Source of the DNA: a virus
Length of the DNA stretch: 64,000 nucleotides
Virus record (IMG/VR): IMGVR_UViG_3300042154_000876
Location: 11,584 to 75,583 of that record
Strand: one strand, 5' to 3'
Under the pieces are notes generated by a model. It made no database searches and was not told the DNA's origin. It saw only the letters and a program-made list of their open reading frames with translations. The translations under genes and the position numbers were made by a program. Of this stretch, positions 4,052 through 60,455 are shown in pieces. Position 1 is the first letter of the stretch. The number at the start of each line of letters is the position of its first letter.

Positions 4052-4315
4052 ATGAAAATCTTTGTTGACACCCCCGAGGGCGGAAGCCTCGTTGAGATTG
4101 AAGTCTCCACACTAGAAGATGACAGGCTAAACACGCTTGCCGCATCTGGATCTAAAGAAGCGCGCGACGAGGTTAAAAAGCGTACCGGTATGGATCCATA
4201 TAAGCCTGTTTCTGAGCACACACCCGAAGACGTCGAATACTACATGGAGTGGTTAAAAAATAACGACTCTGAAAAATACAATAAAATTGTAGGTAGCGAT
4301 AAGGACGTTGAGTAG
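4052..4315 (+). CDS. Small acidic hypothetical protein (paralog A)
   Basis: AAGGA RBS upstream; aligns with next ORF. Confidence 0.8.
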   Translation: MKIFVDTPEGGSLVEIEVSTLEDDRLNTLAASGSKEARDEVKKRTGMDPYKPVSEHTPEDVEYYMEWLKNNDSEKYNKIVGSDKDVE

Positions 4316-48655: not shown

Positions 48656-48733
48656 GTTGTTGTTCCTTTCGTCTCTAAATAGATACTATCACATTTTAGG
48701 AAATATTATTAGCAAAAAGCTATAGTATCTCGA

Positions 48734-49198: not shown

Positions 49199-51015
49199 TA
49201 GTACTTTGCTCCCCAGTTCTCTAGAGGTCCGTCAACATCAGCGGTAAGAGGCACTGACCAGCCATCGCGGGTGGTCATACACTCGCGTACGATCTGTTGG
49301 ATCTCGGCCGCATCTTCGCGAGGTGCGTTTAGTACGATTTCGTCGTGTACGGGCACAATAAGTAGTTCAGTTAGATCTGCCTTGTCTAGTTTGATTAGGT
49401 TTGACTTAAACACTTCTGCAGCACCTCCTTGGATTAGGTAGTTAACCAGAGTATACACTCGGTCTTCGTCACAAGGTAAGCGACGTCCAGTCCAAGTATT
49501 TACGTAGCCCTGACCTTCTGCGCGTAGTCGGCGCATACCCACGTCTTCGACCTGCTTCTGGAACAGGGTCATGCCTGGGAATCGTAGGTCGAATGCGTCT
49601 GACACTGCCTGCATCTGATCCTTGGCTACACCAGCAGTAACGGCTTGCTTTTCTACACCTGCTCCATAGAGACGACCGTAGACCACGCCCTTGATAAGTC
49701 CACGACGCTTGTCTGACTTCTGCATTGTTGGGTCTTGATAGATCTCGCGGCCGATCTCGGTGAACGGGTCAGAGCCAGTAGCGTCAGCTAAGTTAAATAG
49801 GCTGATTAGGTTTGGATCCTTAGATAGCGATGCGAACATACGGAACTCAACCTGGTCAAGGTCCGAGGTGATGATTACGTGGTCGTCATCTTTAGGCAAG
49901 AACGCGCGGCGCACTGTGTCGTCTCCCTTTGGAAGAGTCTGTAGGGCTGGGTTCTGGATGGACATGCGACCGGTGCGGGCACCCATTGTCTTTACAGATG
50001 GGTGTACAAAACCATTTACATTGTCATTAATGAAGTTCTTGAAATATGTGTTGGCTAGTTTGTCAGCTTTTCTCTGTTTGAGCACAACGTCAGCCAGCTG
50101 CTTGATTTCTGCGTTACCCTCTTGTAGGAAGATTTTTAGCTGGTCGGCAGAGGCAGACTTCTGCCCTGATGGGGTGAACTCTGTGATTTCAGCCCCGAGG
50201 CTCTCAAAGATCTTGACTAGCTGGATATTACTGGTTATGGACATGCCGTAATGCGACTTGCCCCACTCCTTTACCTGTTCAGTGTAGTTCACCAGCTCGT
50301 CGTACTTCTTCTGAGAGTAGTCTAGATCTAGCCTAGCGCCGTTGATCTCCATACGGGTAACAATCTTTCGGGTAGCCATCTCTAGCTCGTACGCCTGAGA
50401 ATAAGGCTGACCCGGACCGCACTTCTCCCAGAACTGCTCAAATAGACGCATAGTTAGGACAGTGTCGAGGGCACCATAGGCCCAGTAAGGTTCAAAGTTA
50501 ATAGGCACAGTTCCCCAGGTCCAGCCGTTTTTAGCTAGTTCCTGGTCTAGTACTGATTGGAGCTGGGCAGCCTGTGCATCAACATACCGTGCGGTGAGAC
50601 GTTTTAGCGCGCCTGACCCCAGTGGATCGATAAGCTGAGCCATAATCATGGTGTCGTGCGCCCGGTGCCAAGGCATGTCCCAGCGGGATTGCACATCAAA
50701 CCAGCGGGCCTCGAAGGCAATATTGTGACAGACAATCAATCCATCAAACTTGCTCATGGCTTCGTAGAAAACCCCGTTCCACTCGTCCCAGGGGATGGAC
50801 CAACCGGTCTGTCCGTCACCTACCTGAACTAAGCGTAGACGTCCATGCCAAGGAGATAGGGCGTCGCCGCGTGGGTGCCCTGGAAGTTCGCCTGTTTCAG
50901 TGTCGATTGCAATTGCGTTGTATGGTCGACGCTCGCCTAGCCAGCTAATAAACTCTTCAGCGGTTTTGACGCTATTAACTAGATTTAGTTTTACGTCAGA
51001 TAAGCCGGATGCCAT
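49198..51015 (-). CDS. polA: Family A DNA polymerase with 3'-5' exonuclease domain
   Basis: IDTET, YGALD, TGRMS..P.LQ, DLDQVEFR, KGVVYGRLYG, IQG.AAE, VHDEIV. Confidence 0.93.
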   Translation of the reverse strand: MASGLSDVKLNLVNSVKTAEEFISWLGERRPYNAIAIDTETGELPGHPRGDALSPWHGRLRLVQVGDGQTGWSIPWDEWNGVFYEAMSKFDGLIVCHNIAFEARWFDVQSRWDMPWHRAHDTMIMAQLIDPLGSGALKRLTARYVDAQAAQLQSVLDQELAKNGWTWGTVPINFEPYWAYGALDTVLTMRLFEQFWEKCGPGQPYSQAYELEMATRKIVTRMEINGARLDLDYSQKKYDELVNYTEQVKEWGKSHYGMSITSNIQLVKIFESLGAEITEFTPSGQKSASADQLKIFLQEGNAEIKQLADVVLKQRKADKLANTYFKNFINDNVNGFVHPSVKTMGARTGRMSIQNPALQTLPKGDDTVRRAFLPKDDDHVIITSDLDQVEFRMFASLSKDPNLISLFNLADATGSDPFTEIGREIYQDPTMQKSDKRRGLIKGVVYGRLYGAGVEKQAVTAGVAKDQMQAVSDAFDLRFPGMTLFQKQVEDVGMRRLRAEGQGYVNTWTGRRLPCDEDRVYTLVNYLIQGGAAEVFKSNLIKLDKADLTELLIVPVHDEIVLNAPREDAAEIQQIVRECMTTRDGWSVPLTADVDGPLENWGAKY

Positions 51016-56316: not shown

Positions 56317-58941
56317 ATGTCATCTCCCAAAACGACGCACGCTGAACGACTAGCAAAAGGGTCTGTTTGGTACGCCAAGCAGGGATGGAAGATTCTCCCT
56401 TGCTTCGGTATTACAGATGGAGGTCGCTGTACCTGTAATGGTCAGCACGCTGAGCCAAAGGACATTGGTAAGCACCCCCAGATTGGCGATTGGAATAACC
56501 GCGCTACGGATGAGATAGAAATCGTAGAGTCTTGGTGGGATCGCAATCCTGAAAACAACATTGGTGTTTACTGCCAGGGTTCTGGATTTATCGTTGTCGA
56601 CATTGACCCGCGCTCTGGCGGTATCGAGTCGTTTGAGAAGTTTGAAGAGCTACTTGGGATAACTCTTCCAAAGACTGTAGAAGCGCTGACTGGTTTGTAT
56701 AGCTATCAGGGTTCTCAAAACCGTGGACGTCACCTGTACTTCAGGGTCGAAGACGGCGACCAGTTTATGGGAAACCTAAAGTCTTATGGTTTGAACGGTA
56801 TCGACATTAAGTACAACGGCTACGTTATGGTGTCGCCGTCTCGTCACGGGTCTGGTGTTACATATGACTGGGCACCTGGACAATCTCCATGGGAAATGCG
56901 TATGGCTGAGGCCCCCGAAGAACTTTTAAATGCAATCCGTAAGCGTAGCAGCCGTGGCCGTGGTGGGACAAGCCTTGGTCAAGGTGACTGGAGCTGGCTC
57001 GGGGATCTGAACTCTGGCGACGAGCGCGTTGATATTAACAAGTTTCTTGAAGAAGGTATTGAAGAAGGCTCTCGTGCTGTAGACATCTACAAGCTAGCAT
57101 GTGCAATTGCGAACAAGATGGGCGTGGACTCTGAGGCTGGAAAGCTTGCAGTAGAGACTCTTATGATTCGCTTCAACCACGAGAAGGTTCGTCCACCGCT
57201 AGAGCTTGAGGGCCAGGGTGGCCTACTGATGCACGTTCGACGTGCTATTGATTTTGTTGCTAATAACCCAGTTGGCGATTTGATTTGGCCGGGTGCTCAG
57301 GATTGGGCTAAGCGTAACCAAGAGGAGACCAGATCTACCCCATCTAATCCAGCCCCTAAGGTTAAAGATTCCGAAGGCAACGAACGCCACTCCGAAGTTG
57401 TGTACGGCACTATTGGCGCGGCTATGGCCGACGCCGCCCACAGCGGTGTTTCAATTGCCGATGCGTTCAGCAGTGGTAACGTTGACGTTCCCAAGGACCC
57501 AGACGCTATCTCTGAGCATGAGGGTGGCTCGCCTGGTAGGCGTTCGCTCTCTGATATCGGTAACGGTCGTCGAATCGTAGACTCGTTTGGGTCCTCAATT
57601 CGATACACTCCAGGTATCGGTTGGTTTATCTGGGACGGCAGCTACTGGCGTCCAGATGCCGAGGACCTCGGTATGCGTGAGGTTGCTAAGCGTGTTCCAA
57701 CTATTATTGCCACTGAGGTTGCCAAATACGACGACCAAGATAAAAAGAATGAAGTCTTGAAGTGGGCTAATCAGGCTAAGTCAAACTCACGCCTGAACTC
57801 TGCAATCGAAAGCGCAAACTCCGACCCTCGTGTTGTGGTCCCTGTAGAAGAATGGGACGGCGACGAGTATCTTCTTGGTGTGGCCAATGGTGTTATTAAC
57901 CTACGCACCGGTGAGCTTTTGCGTGGACGTCCAGACTTGCATATCACGAAGCGCACCCCTGTTGCCTATACCCCTGGAATGCGTAATGTCCGCTGGGAGC
58001 AGTTCCTAGACTTTGCTACCGGTGCTGACAAAGAGCTTCAGGATTGGATTCAGCGCGCTGTTGGCTACACACTCACCGGTCTAAATAATCAGGACCTTAT
58101 GTTCTTGGTCTACGGTCCTCCGGGCTCTGGTAAGAACACATTTGTTGAAGCAATCGTTAAGGCTCTCGGAACTCAGCAGTATTCGTGGCCGCTGGATTCA
58201 AGCATCCTTGCTGACAATGGTGGAGCTACCAGCAGCACCGACCTATATCACTGGGCCGAACTTCGTGGTAAGCGTATGGTTTGGGTTGACGAGTTGCCAG
58301 AGTCTGAGCGCATCAAGGAAAACTCTATTAAGAAGTTGACTGGTTCATCTGAAATCTCGGCGCGTTCGCCTGGCGAGAAGCCGTTTACATTCAAGGCCCA
58401 GGCTAAGCTGTGGGTTACCACTAACCACCGCCCTATGATCACTGATGATGCTATGTGGCGTCGTATTCGTCCGATTCCATGGAGCAAGGTTCCTGAATCT
58501 TCCGATCCAGACCTGAAGGCATACTTGTTTGACCCTGAAGGTGGTCTGCCAGCCGTGCTTGCTTGGGCCGTTGAGGGCGCGATCAAGTATCTAGGTTCTT
58601 CTGCCCGTGATCCTCTAGGTTGGTGTACTGCCGTAGCTGAAGCTGCTGACATGTACCGCAAGAACGAAGACCGTCTTGGTATGTTCTTGAACGAAGAAAT
58701 GAAGCAGGTTGAGGGTGCGACTACTCGAGTTAAAGAAGTCTATGCGGTGTATCGAGTTTGGTCTGATGAACGTGGTGAGCGTCCTATGACTCAGATTGCA
58801 TTCCACCGTAAGCTATCTGACCGAGGTCTAACCATTATGGGTCAGGGCTCTCGCGCTGAGCTGAAAGAGTATGTGATGGCTCCTCGTGCTGTTGAGTCGA
58901 ATGGTATCGACTGGAACTTGGCTAGCAGACTCGCTAACTAA
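56317..58941 (+). CDS. Prim-Pol (AEP) fused to D5/P4-type SF3 helicase
   Basis: GKHP, NIG..VVDID, GRHLYF; D.GN.RR, NGVINLRTG, GPPGSGKNT, TNHRP..DDAMWRR. Confidence 0.92.
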   Translation: MSSPKTTHAERLAKGSVWYAKQGWKILPCFGITDGGRCTCNGQHAEPKDIGKHPQIGDWNNRATDEIEIVESWWDRNPENNIGVYCQGSGFIVVDIDPRSGGIESFEKFEELLGITLPKTVEALTGLYSYQGSQNRGRHLYFRVEDGDQFMGNLKSYGLNGIDIKYNGYVMVSPSRHGSGVTYDWAPGQSPWEMRMAEAPEELLNAIRKRSSRGRGGTSLGQGDWSWLGDLNSGDERVDINKFLEEGIEEGSRAVDIYKLACAIANKMGVDSEAGKLAVETLMIRFNHEKVRPPLELEGQGGLLMHVRRAIDFVANNPVGDLIWPGAQDWAKRNQEETRSTPSNPAPKVKDSEGNERHSEVVYGTIGAAMADAAHSGVSIADAFSSGNVDVPKDPDAISEHEGGSPGRRSLSDIGNGRRIVDSFGSSIRYTPGIGWFIWDGSYWRPDAEDLGMREVAKRVPTIIATEVAKYDDQDKKNEVLKWANQAKSNSRLNSAIESANSDPRVVVPVEEWDGDEYLLGVANGVINLRTGELLRGRPDLHITKRTPVAYTPGMRNVRWEQFLDFATGADKELQDWIQRAVGYTLTGLNNQDLMFLVYGPPGSGKNTFVEAIVKALGTQQYSWPLDSSILADNGGATSSTDLYHWAELRGKRMVWVDELPESERIKENSIKKLTGSSEISARSPGEKPFTFKAQAKLWVTTNHRPMITDDAMWRRIRPIPWSKVPESSDPDLKAYLFDPEGGLPAVLAWAVEGAIKYLGSSARDPLGWCTAVAEAADMYRKNEDRLGMFLNEEMKQVEGATTRVKEVYAVYRVWSDERGERPMTQIAFHRKLSDRGLTIMGQGSRAELKEYVMAPRAVESNGIDWNLASRLAN

Positions 58942-58987
58942 AAAAGTAAATATTTAACACTTTCTATCGATTGTGCGATAGAATGTG

Positions 58988-59052
58988 ATTGTGCTCCTTG
59001 GGAGAGAGGCACAATGGGGCCGGGTAGTCTCCCTTCCCGGCCCCTTCTTTTT
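58988..59052 (+). ncRNA. Candidate small two-hairpin RNA with complementary loops ending in an intrinsic terminator
   Basis: TAGAAT -10 at 58979; stems 58988-94/59009-15 and 59016-24/59036-44; loops GGGAGA and TCTCCC; TTCTTTTT tail. Confidence 0.55.
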
Positions 59053-59065
59053 AGTTAGGATTTTT

Positions 59066-59857
59066 ATGCATATACGCATTGCAACACCTATGTACGGTGG
59101 GAACTGTAAAGGCATCTACATGGACAGCGTTATCAACCTTACCTTTGAGCTTGCTCGAAAAGGTTATCAGATATCATTCTCTAAAATCTACAATGAGAGT
59201 CTTATCACAAGGGCCAGAAATAATCTGGTCAAGGAGTTTTTAGACAGTGACGCTGACTACCTCTTCTTTATCGATGCCGATGAGGGCTTTAATGTTGCAG
59301 ATGTCGTGGCAATGATTGAAATTGAGGCCGATGTTATTGGTGGGATTTATCCTATGAAAAACATTAACTGGGACGGTGTCCGTGCCGCTGCGCTGGCTGG
59401 GAAAGAAAACCTAGCTGACTACTCTGGTATTTTTGCAATGAATCTTCTTCCTGGAACATCTACCATTAAACTGAATGAGCCGGTTGAGGTTACAGAAGTT
59501 GCTACCGGTCTAATGTTGATTAAGCGAAGTGTGTTTGAAGAGATGGAGCCGCTCTGTCCTAAGTATGCTTTGAATGGTTCCAACGGTCAGTTTGACTTTG
59601 ATCGGATGGTTACCGAGTTCTTTGCTACCAGTATTACAGAGGATGGGATTTTGCTATCCGAGGACTACCACTTCTGCCGTAAATGGCGCGAGATGGGCGG
59701 TAAAGTTTATGCCGCTCCGTGGGTAAATGTGGTCCACGCCGGTGACTATCAGTTCAGTGGTCGGTTTGCTCAAGATGTCCAGCTTAGACATGAGATGTCT
59801 ACTAAAGTAAAAGATTCCGAACAGTTGTCGGATACCACTGACGACCATTCTGAGTAG
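59066..59857 (+). CDS. GT-A-like glycosyltransferase
   Basis: IATPMYGG, ESLITRARN, FFIDAD, TGLMLIKR, SEDY.FC; ATG 59066 after AGGA. Confidence 0.75.
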   Translation: MHIRIATPMYGGNCKGIYMDSVINLTFELARKGYQISFSKIYNESLITRARNNLVKEFLDSDADYLFFIDADEGFNVADVVAMIEIEADVIGGIYPMKNINWDGVRAAALAGKENLADYSGIFAMNLLPGTSTIKLNEPVEVTEVATGLMLIKRSVFEEMEPLCPKYALNGSNGQFDFDRMVTEFFATSITEDGILLSEDYHFCRKWREMGGKVYAAPWVNVVHAGDYQFSGRFAQDVQLRHEMSTKVKDSEQLSDTTDDHSE

Positions 59858-60455
59858 GCACTTGATCTCGGTTTAGTCCGTCTGCAATCTTGCGGTATGA
59901 GGCCCCGGAAGATCGTTCAGCAGTAACGCGCTGTTTGATCTCTTCTGGGGTCTTATTCTTTGGTCCCATGTCAACCCCCCAGACTACCCCGCGTGCACGT
60001 CGGTCTTTGTGTACGTCCTTCTGACGCTCGGCAATGATCCCACGTTCCATCTCAGCTAGGGCTGACATGATTGTGACTACGAAGCGACCTTGGTAACTAG
60101 AAGTGTCTAGGTTTAGATCTAGCATCACAAGACGCCAACCGTTCTTGTTGGCTCGGTCTACAACGCTAAGGAAGTCTTGTGTTGAGCGAGCTAGACGATC
60201 AATGCGGGTAACAAATAGTGCTTTAGCTTCTCCGGCATCTAATCTTTTTAGTGCGTCTGTAAGTGCTGGACGTCCGCTAATATTTTTTCCAGAGCGGCCT
60301 TCTTCTCGGACAAGTTCAATGTTTGTGTAGCCAGCCATCTCGGCTGCCTGCTGCAGTTGACGTTCTTGGACGTCAAGGGATACGCCGTCGTTTACCTGTA
60401 GTTGGGTAGATACGCGTGCGTAAAGTATTGCTAAGTCTGTAGGTTCTATGTCCAC
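59802..60455 (-). CDS. Serine recombinase (resolvase-type catalytic domain + short recombinase DNA-binding domain)
   Basis: YARVST, SG..RPAL, DRLARS, AEMER; IA..LN...PT..G..W. Confidence 0.9.
   Translation of the reverse strand: MDIEPTDLAILYARVSTQLQVNDGVSLDVQERQLQQAAEMAGYTNIELVREEGRSGKNISGRPALTDALKRLDAGEAKALFVTRIDRLARSTQDFLSVVDRANKNGWRLVMLDLNLDTSSYQGRFVVTIMSALAEMERGIIAERQKDVHKDRRARGVVWGVDMGPKNKTPEEIKQRVTAERSSGASYRKIADGLNRDQVPTQNGRQWYPTTVRNLLL

What the first reader, a model, noticed from the sequence alone, without database searches (positions are those of the whole stretch)
58954..59052. Kissing-loop small RNA candidate directly downstream of the primase-helicase
Seen: -10 TAGAAT, then two abutting hairpins (ATTGTGC/GCACAAT; GGGGCCGGG/CCCGGCCCC) whose loops carry exactly complementary GGGAGA (59000-05) and TCTCCC (59028-33), then a U tract. 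A plain terminator does not need the first hairpin or loop complementarity. Known: loop-loop pairing drives phi29 pRNA multimerisation and plasmid antisense control. Inference: a ~65-nt phage sRNA (multimerising, SD-like GGGAGA sponge or antitoxin mimic), an attenuator for the downstream GT gene, or an ssDNA priming signal.
Basis: partly seen in the sequence, partly recalled or inferred. Interest (0 to 1): 0.7.

Follow-up and report, generated by a model that had tools for sequence, protein, structure and literature searches.

The report
Conserved phage small RNA, G-rich loop

Summary
A TAGAAT box is followed by hairpin H1 (58988-59015, loop GGGAGA), GC-rich hairpin H2 (59016-59044, loop with TCTCCC) and a T tract.

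Comparison with 72 related viral contigs separates the parts:
- H1 is conserved. Its loop is almost invariant and its stem covaries.
- Every copy examined has a -10-like box 3-17 nt upstream.
- H2 is conserved only as a stable hairpin, not in sequence.
- The H1/H2 loop match occurs only in the window's closest relatives and is within chance (P about 0.1-0.15).

The unit occurs once per genome, near the end of the primase-helicase gene block. It has five different downstream neighbourhoods, so it is not a leader of the glycosyltransferase gene. I read it as a stand-alone RNA of about 60 nt. No Rfam family matches and no transcript data were listed.

Two further elements turned up in related genomes:
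- The same G-loop hairpin heads the leader of a small membrane-protein gene.
- A conserved hairpin with loop CUCUCCCC, the exact complement, precedes a ~310-aa gene.

Kissing may therefore happen in trans. That is inferred, not shown.

Earlier notes of this scan describe C-rich-loop RNAs in other lake actinophages. This G-loop unit was not noted before.

The parts
56317..58941 (+). Primase-helicase gene. It is context only. The unit follows the co-directional gene block that contains it.
   Evidence: ORF. Pfam finds Prim-Pol, D5_N, DUF5906 and Pox_D5.
58962..58984 (+). Hairpin 0: inverted repeat TTCTATCG / CGATAGAA with a 7-nt spacer. Its 3' arm overlaps the -10 box.
   Evidence: Sequence and fold. 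L001-L003 keep the arms with spacers of 9-17 nt. L012 has two compensatory pair swaps (TTTTACTG/CAGTAGAA). L013 has TCACTAT/ATAGTGA. Its function is unknown.
58979..58984 (+). -10-like promoter box TAGAAT. The predicted transcription start is about 58990-58992, at the base of H1.
   Evidence: Every H1 copy examined has a TAnnnT box 3-17 nt upstream, often as an extended -10 TGnTAGnAT. Similar boxes stand before genes in this window at 48691(-), 51053(-) and 61319(+). The start site is inferred, not measured.
58988..59015 (+). H1, the 'G-loop hairpin'. Outer stem is 58988-58994 with 59009-59015. Inner stem is CTT 58997-58999 with GAG 59006-59008. The hexaloop GGGAGA is at 59000-59005.
   Evidence: Fold. 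Loop residues are invariant or nearly so in 43 sequences. The covariation score of the loop-closing helix is 0.44 against 0.305 +/- 0.034 in shuffles (0/500), and 0.08-0.21 in slid registers. Cognate arms pair better than non-cognate arms, -8.1 against -5.7 kcal/mol, permutation p about 5e-5. G.U pairs occur only when the + strand is folded.
59016..59052 (+). H2, the intrinsic terminator. A 9-bp G+C stem (59016-59024 with 59036-59044) encloses the 11-nt loop TAGTCTCCCTT, followed by the T tract TTCTTTTT at 59045-59052.
   Evidence: Relatives always have a stable GC-rich hairpin here, but its sequence, length and loop are not conserved, and many have a weak T tract.
59057..59857 (+). Shine-Dalgarno AGGA (59057-59060) and the downstream glycosyltransferase-like gene (ATG at 59066). 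It is a neighbour and is not part of the unit.
   Evidence: ORF. There is no Pfam hit. PHROG 1574 has unknown function. Language-model neighbours are named glycosyltransferase / Anp1-like, score 0.97-0.98.

Best explanation
This is a self-contained small-RNA gene of a family of large, uncultured, probably actinobacterial phages.

The proposed anatomy has three steps.
1. A host-type -10 promoter starts transcription at the foot of H1.
2. H1 displays a Shine-Dalgarno-like hexaloop GGGAGA followed by G, the 'G-loop'.
3. H2 ends the RNA after about 60 nt and also terminates the primase-helicase gene block.

H2's own loop is not a conserved partner of H1.

The most likely action is in trans. The G-loop would pair with C-rich CUCUCCC loops. 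The best candidate is the conserved C-loop hairpin that related genomes carry in the leader of a ~310-aa gene. The RNA would then act as a ribosome-binding-site mimic, decoy or antisense partner. The same circuit would include the leader of a small membrane-protein gene, which starts with the same G-loop hairpin and uses GGGAGA as its real ribosome-binding site.

Shown: conservation, covariation, autonomy of the unit, and the complementary motifs. Inferred: transcription, the RNA's ends and the pairing. Roughly 0.7 for 'a conserved stand-alone RNA gene whose own loops do not kiss'; 0.4 is for that claim together with trans pairing to C-rich loops.
For: Conservation of the unit:
- About 55 of 72 related loci carry the unit: -10 box, H1, stable hairpin.
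- The H1 loop is nearly invariant and its stem covaries.
- G.U pairs fit the + strand only.

Single copy:
- The model finds one copy in the window and one in each related genome searched.

Five different neighbourhoods, showing the unit is autonomous:
- primase-unit-GT, as in WIN.
- primase-gene-unit-GT, as in L027.
- primase-gene-GT-unit, as in L020.
- primase-unit-convergent genes, as in L016, L044 and L051.
- primase-two genes-unit-convergent genes with no GT gene, as in L030-L039.

Promoter:
- The promoter type recurs before genes in this window.
- In L016 it stands before the GT gene without the hairpins.

Candidate partners:
- The same hairpin heads the leader of a small membrane-protein gene in more than 15 distinct contigs, where GGGAGA is also the real Shine-Dalgarno.
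- A covarying 13-16-bp hairpin with loop (G/C)(U/C)CUCUCCCC sits before a ~310-aa gene in about 30 contigs.
- Within genomes, G-loop/C-loop duplexes are 6-10 bp and -11 to -24 kcal/mol. In 9 of 15 comparisons at most 1 of 500 shuffled loops did as well.
- Nine genomes hold both the unit and the C-loop. Five more distant genomes hold neither.

Precedent:
- C-rich loops pairing with G-rich loops without a chaperone is known for the 6C sRNA (PMC6486639).
- G-rich sponge RNAs are known from RosA and RsaI (PMC8216469).
Against: - There is no transcript evidence. No RNA run was listed.
- The -35 region in WIN is poor, and WIN has no TGn extension.
- The window's own record is about half a genome. 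It holds neither the C-loop gene nor the membrane-protein gene, so the partner is inferred from relatives.
- Both loop motifs are nearly invariant, so there is little covariation to prove pairing. At the one variable position next to the core, the primase-side unit matches the C-loop in only 4 of 9 genomes. The membrane-protein leader matches in 7 of 9, plus one wobble.
- G005, a complete genome, has the C-loop and the leader hairpin but no detectable primase-side unit.
- G-rich and C-rich motifs resemble Shine-Dalgarno and anti-Shine-Dalgarno sequences, so some complementarity could follow from separate ribosome-related roles.
- Co-occurrence is confounded by relatedness.
Confidence: 0.4

Rival explanations
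1. Cis-acting 5' leader. The promoter serves the downstream gene. H1 is a 5'-terminal protective hairpin or ribosome standby site (a Shine-Dalgarno-like 5' stabiliser). H2 is a leaky attenuator that sets the read-through into the glycosyltransferase gene.
For: - In most relatives the GT gene follows within 20-40 nt, and many of their H2 hairpins lack a good T tract.
- The GT gene in WIN has no other visible promoter.
- The same hairpin certainly sits in an mRNA leader in the membrane-protein gene context.
- Two of the three lineages that have lost the downstream gene have deviant loops: GGGTGA in L016 and GGGGAGA in L051.
Against: - The unit persists with a canonical loop where nothing co-directional follows: L044 and the whole L030-L039 clade. 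It also stands after the GT gene in L020.
- In L016 the GT gene has its own promoter without H1.
- WIN's T tract, with 7 T in 9 bases, predicts efficient termination.
Confidence: 0.17
2. 3'-end module of the primase-helicase operon. H0, H1 and H2 are hairpins in the 3' untranslated region that terminate and protect the long mRNA. The 'promoter' is only an A+T-rich look-alike. Any short RNA is a processing product.
For: - The unit always sits at the end of the co-directional gene block.
- Hairpin 0 lies upstream of the predicted start and shows compensatory changes, so it can only fold in read-through RNA or in DNA.
Against: - A TAnnnT box, often with a TGn extension, is kept at 3-17 nt from H1 in all lineages although the surrounding sequence is not conserved.
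- A protective hairpin needs no invariant loop.
- The same promoter-plus-hairpin pair heads a different gene elsewhere in these genomes.
Confidence: 0.12
3. Protein-binding hairpin. The GGGAGA loop is the site of an RNA-binding protein, such as an antiterminator in the manner of lambda N with boxB, a translational repressor, or a GGAG-specific nuclease. The small RNA is a decoy for that protein, or marks transcripts for it.
For: - An invariant loop on a freely covarying stem, placed directly after promoters in two transcription units, is the usual look of a protein-recognised hairpin.
- In WIN it stands between a promoter and a terminator.
Against: - No candidate RNA-binding protein was identified.
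- The conserved complementary C-loop gives an RNA partner without invoking a protein.
- No boxA-like element was seen.
Confidence: 0.1
4. The RNA's own two loops pair, within one molecule or between molecules, giving a kissing-loop dimer or multimer in the way of phi29 pRNA.
For: WIN, L001 and L012 have exact or near-exact 6-nt complementarity. H2's loop AGUCUCCC resembles the family's C-loop AGUCUCUCCCC.
Against: - The match is absent from the next relatives (L002, L003) and from most lineages.
- No enrichment over dinucleotide shuffles was seen. Per-lineage P values are mostly above 0.1, and only L008 reaches 0.02.
- The duplex energy is not unusual.
- The hairpins abut with no linker, which hinders pairing within one molecule. 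This last point is inference.
Confidence: 0.05
5. DNA-level replication signal. The hairpin forms in single-stranded DNA, or the short transcript primes synthesis, as an origin or loading site for the neighbouring Prim-Pol/D5 helicase. The precedent is the essential stem-loop downstream of orf904 in plasmid pRN1.
For: - The unit lies next to the primase-helicase block in every genome that has it.
- pRN1 provides a precedent (PMC4234260).
- GTG is conserved at the base of H1 in the first 30 sequences.
Against: - GTG is not kept in the widened set: GACGU, GAUGC and CCCGUC arms occur.
- Inserted genes can separate the unit from the primase gene by 1.4-2.3 kb.
- The same hairpin occurs in an mRNA leader far from the replication genes.
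- More distant primase-helicase relatives lack the unit.
- There is no GC-skew turn here.
- Frequent G.U pairs favour RNA.
Confidence: 0.05

Closest known systems
G-rich sponge small RNAs RosA (Bacillus subtilis) and RsaI (Staphylococcus aureus)
   Same: They are stand-alone small RNAs with their own promoter and terminator. Their exposed G-rich stretches pair with the C-rich regions of other regulatory RNAs (PMC8216469).
   Different: They are host-encoded, about 200 nt or longer, carry several G-rich regions and have been verified experimentally. The unit here is phage-encoded, about 60 nt, has a single G-loop, and has no expression or binding data. There is no sequence relation.
6C sRNA of Actinobacteria (Rfam RF01066) and its targets
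   Same: The pairing logic is the same: a C-rich hairpin loop meets a G-rich, often loop-exposed, ribosome-binding-like sequence without a chaperone (PMC6486639). The probable host phylum is also the same.
   Different: The polarity is reversed. The window's RNA shows the G-rich side, so it looks like a 6C target or decoy rather than 6C. No Rfam match was found. The C-loop partner found here is a single long hairpin in a phage mRNA leader.
Kissing-loop antisense control (CopA/CopT, RNA I/RNA II) and phi29 pRNA loop-loop multimers
   Same: Two hairpin loops with exact complementarity are the proposed first contact.
   Different: In those systems the loop pairs are maintained. Here the two loops of the same RNA are not co-conserved. 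Any kissing would be with a separate RNA encoded tens of kilobases away.
Shine-Dalgarno-like 5' stabilisers of Gram-positive mRNAs (for example the cryIIIA STAB-SD; from my own knowledge, not checked in a paper here)
   Same: A ribosome-binding-like sequence near the 5' end has no start codon behind it.
   Different: Those act in cis on a long mRNA. Here the transcript is predicted to end 45 nt later, and the unit survives without a downstream gene.
pRN1 origin stem-loop downstream of the Prim-Pol helicase gene orf904
   Same: A conserved stem-loop plus a terminator lies directly after a Prim-Pol/superfamily-3 helicase gene (PMC4234260).
   Different: The pRN1 element is a stem-loop of about 100 nt, conserved in structure rather than sequence, and shown to be needed for replication. 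Here the hairpin has 28 nt, an invariant loop, a promoter, and a second copy in an unrelated mRNA leader.

Membership tests
Any Rfam 15 family | A covariance-model match at or near the family's gathering score | tested here: not met
   In the window (58000-60000) the best overlapping hits are atoC at 18 bits (gathering 50) and antisense_SR1 at 16 bits, both at E above 1. Nothing was found for related loci of any of the three element types.
Intrinsic (Rho-independent) terminator (H2) | A G+C-rich stem-loop directly followed by a U tract | tested here: met
   The 9-bp G/C stem is at 59016-59044 and TTCTTTTT at 59045-59052. The simple scan missed it because its loop limit is 8 nt. Many relatives have a weaker T tract.
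Housekeeping-sigma promoter of the actinobacterial kind | A -10 TAnnnT box, optionally with a TGn extension, and a start about 7 nt downstream | tested here: inconclusive
   The -10 TAGAAT is present and conserved in position in all lineages. The TGn extension is present in many relatives but not in WIN. The -35 is poor, with 19-nt spacing. No start-site data exist.
Kissing-loop RNA, own loops (phi29 pRNA-like or dimerising hairpins) | Loop-loop complementarity maintained across relatives | tested here: not met
   Only WIN, L001 and L012 have it. Per-lineage shuffle P values are mostly above 0.1. The duplex energy is matched by 76 of 500 shuffles.
Trans-acting base-pairing or sponge small RNA | An independent transcription unit: own promoter, terminator, and no dependence on neighbours | tested here: met
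   This holds at the sequence level only. The box-hairpin-terminator unit is kept in five different gene neighbourhoods.
Trans-acting base-pairing or sponge small RNA | A conserved complementary partner in the same genome | tested here: inconclusive
   A C-loop hairpin with a 6-10-nt complement is present in nine related genomes that carry the unit. It is not testable for the window's own genome because the record is incomplete. Covariation is weak because both motifs are nearly invariant.
Trans-acting base-pairing or sponge small RNA | A discrete transcript seen in cells | not testable with these tools
   No RNA run was listed for this stretch.
6C sRNA (RF01066) | Two hairpins with C-rich loops | tested here: not met
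   The H1 loop is G-rich. There is no Rfam hit.
Lambda-type nut site (boxA + boxB) | A short hairpin with a GNRA-like pentaloop, a boxA element and an N-like protein | tested here: inconclusive
   Partly examined by eye: the loop is a hexaloop, GGGAGA, and I saw no boxA-like element in the aligned upstream regions, but no boxA scan was run and no N-like protein was sought.
pRN1-type replication stem-loop | A conserved stem-loop after the Prim-Pol helicase gene carrying GTG primase motifs and needed for replication | tested here: inconclusive
   The position is met. GTG is invariant in the first 30 sequences but is lost in the widened set. The need for replication cannot be tested here.

The most novel reading that the evidence does not exclude
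These phages run a three-part RNA circuit built on one complementary pair of loops.
- A stand-alone G-loop small RNA sits at the end of the replication genes. This is the window's element.
- The same G-loop heads the leader of a small holin-like membrane-protein gene, whose real ribosome-binding site is also GGGAGA.
- A C-loop hairpin (CUCUCCCC) sits in the leader of a ~310-aa gene that weakly resembles a small terminase.

The small RNA would act as a phage-made ribosome-binding-site mimic. It would titrate or kiss the C-loop, and possibly host 6C-type RNAs, and so time late or lysis gene translation. It would be the first G-rich counterpart to the C-rich-loop RNAs that this scan keeps finding in lake actinophages.
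Probability: 0.25. Interest if true: 0.8.

Novelty: new member of a known kind. Interest (0 to 1): 0.55.

Why it matters
Few phage-encoded small RNAs have a known role, and almost none come from the abundant uncultured phages of lake actinobacteria. This element is an uncatalogued RNA family with clear comparative support. It has a simple, testable feature: a fixed ribosome-binding-site-like loop. It also has a candidate partner with the exact complementary loop in the same genomes.

If the pairing is real, it would show that phages use the chaperone-free G-loop/C-loop pairing logic of actinobacterial 6C-type RNAs, and also the decoy logic of the G-rich sponge RNAs RosA and RsaI. It would also give a handle on how replication, packaging and lysis genes are timed in phages that cannot yet be grown. 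If the pairing is not real, the element is still a clean marker RNA for this phage family.

Tried and rejected
- RNA evidence: the look-up of sequencing runs (kind rna) listed no RNA holder for 58300-59700.
- Rfam: no family matched the window element, the membrane-protein leader or the C-loop hairpin.
- GenBank phages: only distant primase-helicase hits at about 68% nucleotide identity, in Microbacterium phages and Actinomycetia phage DSL-LC01. None covers the intergenic region.
- Mini-ORF behind the GGGAGA loop: rejected. WIN has an ATG at 59013, but it is neither conserved nor in a fixed frame in relatives (reading).
- Double-stranded DNA operator for a dimeric protein: rejected. The distance between the H1 arms varies from 14 to 25 nt, the inner helix covaries and G.U pairs are frequent.
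- T7-like promoter start (GGGAGA is the T7 class III initial transcribed sequence; from my own knowledge): rejected. The bases upstream of GGGAGA covary as a stem and are not conserved as a sequence.
- Antiterminator fold from GGGAGA pairing with TCTCCC across H2's 5' arm: considered and rejected, because it is not conserved and is far less stable than H1 plus H2.
- The first covariance model alignment (A2) misaligned 3' arms that have long internal loops, and gave only weak statistics. It was replaced by a gapless loop-centred alignment and an arm-swap test.
- An automated count of T residues after H2 was unreliable, because folding extended the stems into the tails. It was not used.
- GC skew shows no turn at the site.
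- No homologue of the small membrane-protein gene or the ~310-aa gene exists in the window or its record. The record is about 51% complete.
- I did not use the metagenome or bacterial-genome collection scans, structure prediction or complex prediction.

Full report
**The sequence itself.** The intergenic region 58942-59065 lies between the stop codon of an 874-aa Prim-Pol/D5-type primase-helicase (56317-58941) and the ATG (59066) of a glycosyltransferase-like gene. Pfam gives no hit for that gene. PHROG 1574 has unknown function, and protein-atlas neighbours are named glycosyltransferase or Anp1-like. RNAfold gives two abutting hairpins as the minimum-energy fold: -35.1 kcal/mol, z = -3.6. With flanks, a third hairpin appears upstream: TTCTATCG/CGATAGAA at 58962-58984, whose 3' arm contains the TAGAAT box. 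Rfam has nothing. The window is part of a 75.6-kb IMG/VR virus record that is about half complete. Its primase resembles those of Microbacterium phages at about 68% DNA identity. An actinobacterial host is therefore likely, but this is an inference.

**What is conserved.** A search with the C-terminal half of the primase-helicase returned 72 related viral contigs at 64-99% protein identity. Right after the stop codon, most of them show the same layout:
- a -10-like box (TAGAAT, TAGGAT, TAGTAT or TACAAT), often as an extended -10 TGnTAGnAT;
- 3-17 nt further on, a hairpin whose loop reads nGGAGA, mostly GGGAGA followed by G;
- then a very stable G+C-rich hairpin.

**Evidence for the H1 structure.** The H1 stems differ and compensate. 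Inner helices include CUU/GAG, CUC/GAG, UGC/GCA, GUC/GAC and CCC/GGG. Outer helices include GUGC/GCAC, GCGC/GCGC, GGUGU/ACGCC, GACGU/ACGUC and GAUGC/GCAUC.
- On a gapless loop-centred alignment of 43 sequences, the four pairs closing the hexaloop score 0.44 for covariation. Shuffles give 0.305 +/- 0.034 (0 of 500 reach the observed value), and slid registers give 0.08-0.21.
- 21 cells carry double changes, against 3 in the tetraloop register that RNAfold prefers for the window sequence alone.
- Swapping 3' arms between lineages weakens the hairpin from -8.1 to -5.7 kcal/mol on average (permutation p about 5e-5). Relatedness inflates this figure.
- G.U pairs are common on the + strand and would be A.C mismatches on the other strand.

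**Promoter.** Boxes of the same type stand in front of genes elsewhere in the window, at 48691(-), 51053(-) and 61319(+). One stands in front of the GT gene of L016, without any hairpin.

**What is not conserved.** H2 is always a strong hairpin, but its sequence, length and loop change freely. TCTCCC or TCTCC in the loop is confined to WIN, L001 and L012. The sister lineages L002 and L003 have loops ATATAG and CTTTGG. For each distinct lineage I compared the longest Watson-Crick complement between the H1 core and H2 with 2000 dinucleotide shuffles of H2. WIN gives P = 0.11, most lineages give P above 0.3, and only L008 reaches 0.02. The WIN loop-loop duplex of -10.9 kcal/mol is matched by 76 of 500 shuffled loops.

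**The unit is autonomous.** A covariance model built from 30 copies finds exactly one copy in the window and one per related genome. A relaxed hairpin scanner then found the unit in loci that I had first scored as lacking it. Five neighbourhoods exist:

| Arrangement | Examples |
|---|---|
| primase-unit-GT | WIN and most others |
| primase-inserted gene-unit-GT | L027 |
| primase-gene-GT-unit | L020; next + gene 270 nt away |
| primase-unit-convergent genes | L016/17, L044, L051/52 |
| primase-two secreted-protein genes-unit-convergent genes, no GT gene | L030-L039, L063, L071 |

A complete genome, G021, adds another diverged copy. A leader or attenuator of the GT gene would not survive these rearrangements. 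A stand-alone gene, or a 3' module of the replication gene block, would. The kept -10 box and the second context described next favour the gene reading.

**A second context for the same hairpin.** Weak model hits in related genomes led to the leader of a small (86-97 aa) membrane-protein gene, possibly a holin. Its only PHROG label, 'nuclease', looks doubtful. In more than 15 distinct contigs this leader has:
- a -10 box and, 7-10 nt later, the same U.G/C-G-closed GGGAGA hexaloop hairpin;
- a short spacer and a C/U-rich tract;
- GGGAGA again, now 5-7 nt before the ATG as the real Shine-Dalgarno.

One such contig is also the one that holds L012, the 99% relative of the window. The G-loop is thus a ribosome-binding-site look-alike that these phages place at the 5' end of at least two transcripts.

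**A complementary loop.** I searched two complete related genomes for hairpin loops containing the complement. Each had one strong intergenic hairpin, at orthologous places before a ~310-aa gene. That gene has weak hits to DUF5763 and to a small-terminase PHROG. In about 30 contigs the hairpin has a covarying 13-16-bp stem and a 12-18-nt loop reading (G/C)(U/C)CUCUCCCC.
- Within genomes, the G-loop regions and this C-loop can form 6-10 bp duplexes of -11 to -24 kcal/mol. In 9 of 15 comparisons at most 1 of 500 shuffled loops did as well.
- The unit and the C-loop occur together in G001, G003, G006, G007, G008, G009, G010, G021 and G039.
- G005 has the C-loop and the leader hairpin only.
- The more distant G004, G041, G042, G044 and G045 have none of these elements. 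This pattern follows phylogeny and is not independent evidence.
- At the one variable position next to the 7-nt core, the membrane-protein leader pairs with the C-loop in 7 of 9 genomes, plus one wobble, and both A-U and G-C occur there. The primase-side unit pairs in only 4 of 9. This is my reading, and the numbers are small.
- The C-loop's own leader also contains a G-rich box, GGGWAGAGAC, that could pair with it in cis.
- The window's record holds neither partner gene. For this genome the partner is therefore inferred.

**Interpretation.** The best-supported reading is a small RNA gene of about 60 nt. Its functional part is the G-loop hairpin and its second hairpin is simply the terminator. 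Trans pairing with C-rich loops is the most economical mechanism. It follows the known chaperone-free C-loop/G-loop pairing of the actinobacterial 6C sRNA (PMC6486639) and the G-rich sponge RNAs RosA and RsaI (PMC8216469). Transcription, RNA ends and pairing are all inferred.

The rivals I keep are:
- a cis leader or 5' stabiliser;
- a 3'-end module of the operon. Hairpin 0 lies upstream of the predicted start and shows two compensatory swaps in L012, which speaks for read-through RNA having a structure too;
- a protein-binding hairpin;
- a replication signal in the manner of the pRN1 stem-loop (PMC4234260). The loss of the GTG motif in the widened set, the second copy in an mRNA leader and the absence of a skew turn weaken this one.

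**Relation to earlier notes of this scan.** Notes on other lake actinophage genomes describe C-rich-loop small RNAs likened to 6C. One of them pointed me to PMC6486639 and to the idea of looking for a C-rich partner. Those notes are unchecked and are not counted as evidence.

**Verdict.** The element is a real, uncatalogued, conserved phage RNA element, and the self-kissing idea is not supported. A trans G-loop/C-loop pairing is plausible but unproven.

Noticed in passing
window 58962-58984: The inverted repeat TTCTATCG/CGATAGAA overlaps the -10 box. Close relatives keep the arms with spacers of 7-17 nt. L012 has two compensatory pair swaps, and the L013 clade has a different palindrome (TCACTAT/ATAGTGA) at the same place. 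It could be a structure in read-through RNA or a regulatory DNA site.
   Followed up: partly
L085:540-600, L087, L088, L094 and others (upstream of locus position 601); G003:C1 about 106538 (-); G006:C1 about 32008 (+): A conserved structured leader precedes an 86-97-aa membrane-protein (holin-like) gene. It has a -10 box, a G-loop hairpin, a C/U-rich tract, then GGGAGA as the Shine-Dalgarno, with a strong terminator after the gene. Folding predicts that the first GGGAGAG can alternatively pair with the C/U tract and partly cover the Shine-Dalgarno.
   Followed up: partly
L157:430-480 (= G006:C1 about 50138-50188); G003:C1 about 93200-93250 (-); L158-L188, L196, L203, L205, L206, L219, L220, L222: A conserved 'C-loop' hairpin has a 13-16-bp covarying stem and the loop ..CUCUCCCC... 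It lies in a long leader (promoter TATAGTGATAAC, a variable hairpin, G-rich box GGGWAGAGAC) before a ~310-aa gene. No Rfam family matches.
   Followed up: partly
L005, L006, L007, L070 (locus about 4215-4250): In this clade the H1 loop carries an 11-nt insertion that partly duplicates the motif (GGGAUCUAUUC before GGGAGA), which makes an 18-nt loop.
   Followed up: no
L126:1292-1416: A partial tmRNA match (39.7 bits, E 7e-13, cut at the locus end) lies on a viral contig next to a homologue of the small membrane-protein gene.
   Followed up: no
window 59802-60455 (-): A 217-aa serine-recombinase-like ORF has a Resolvase N-terminal domain and only the start of a Recombinase domain. It converges on the GT gene and overlaps its 3' end by about 55 nt.
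   Followed up: no
window 48691 (-), 51053 (-), 61319 (+): Extended -10 boxes of the form TGnTA(G/C)nAT stand 25-40 nt before gene starts. This may be the common promoter type of this phage.
   Followed up: no
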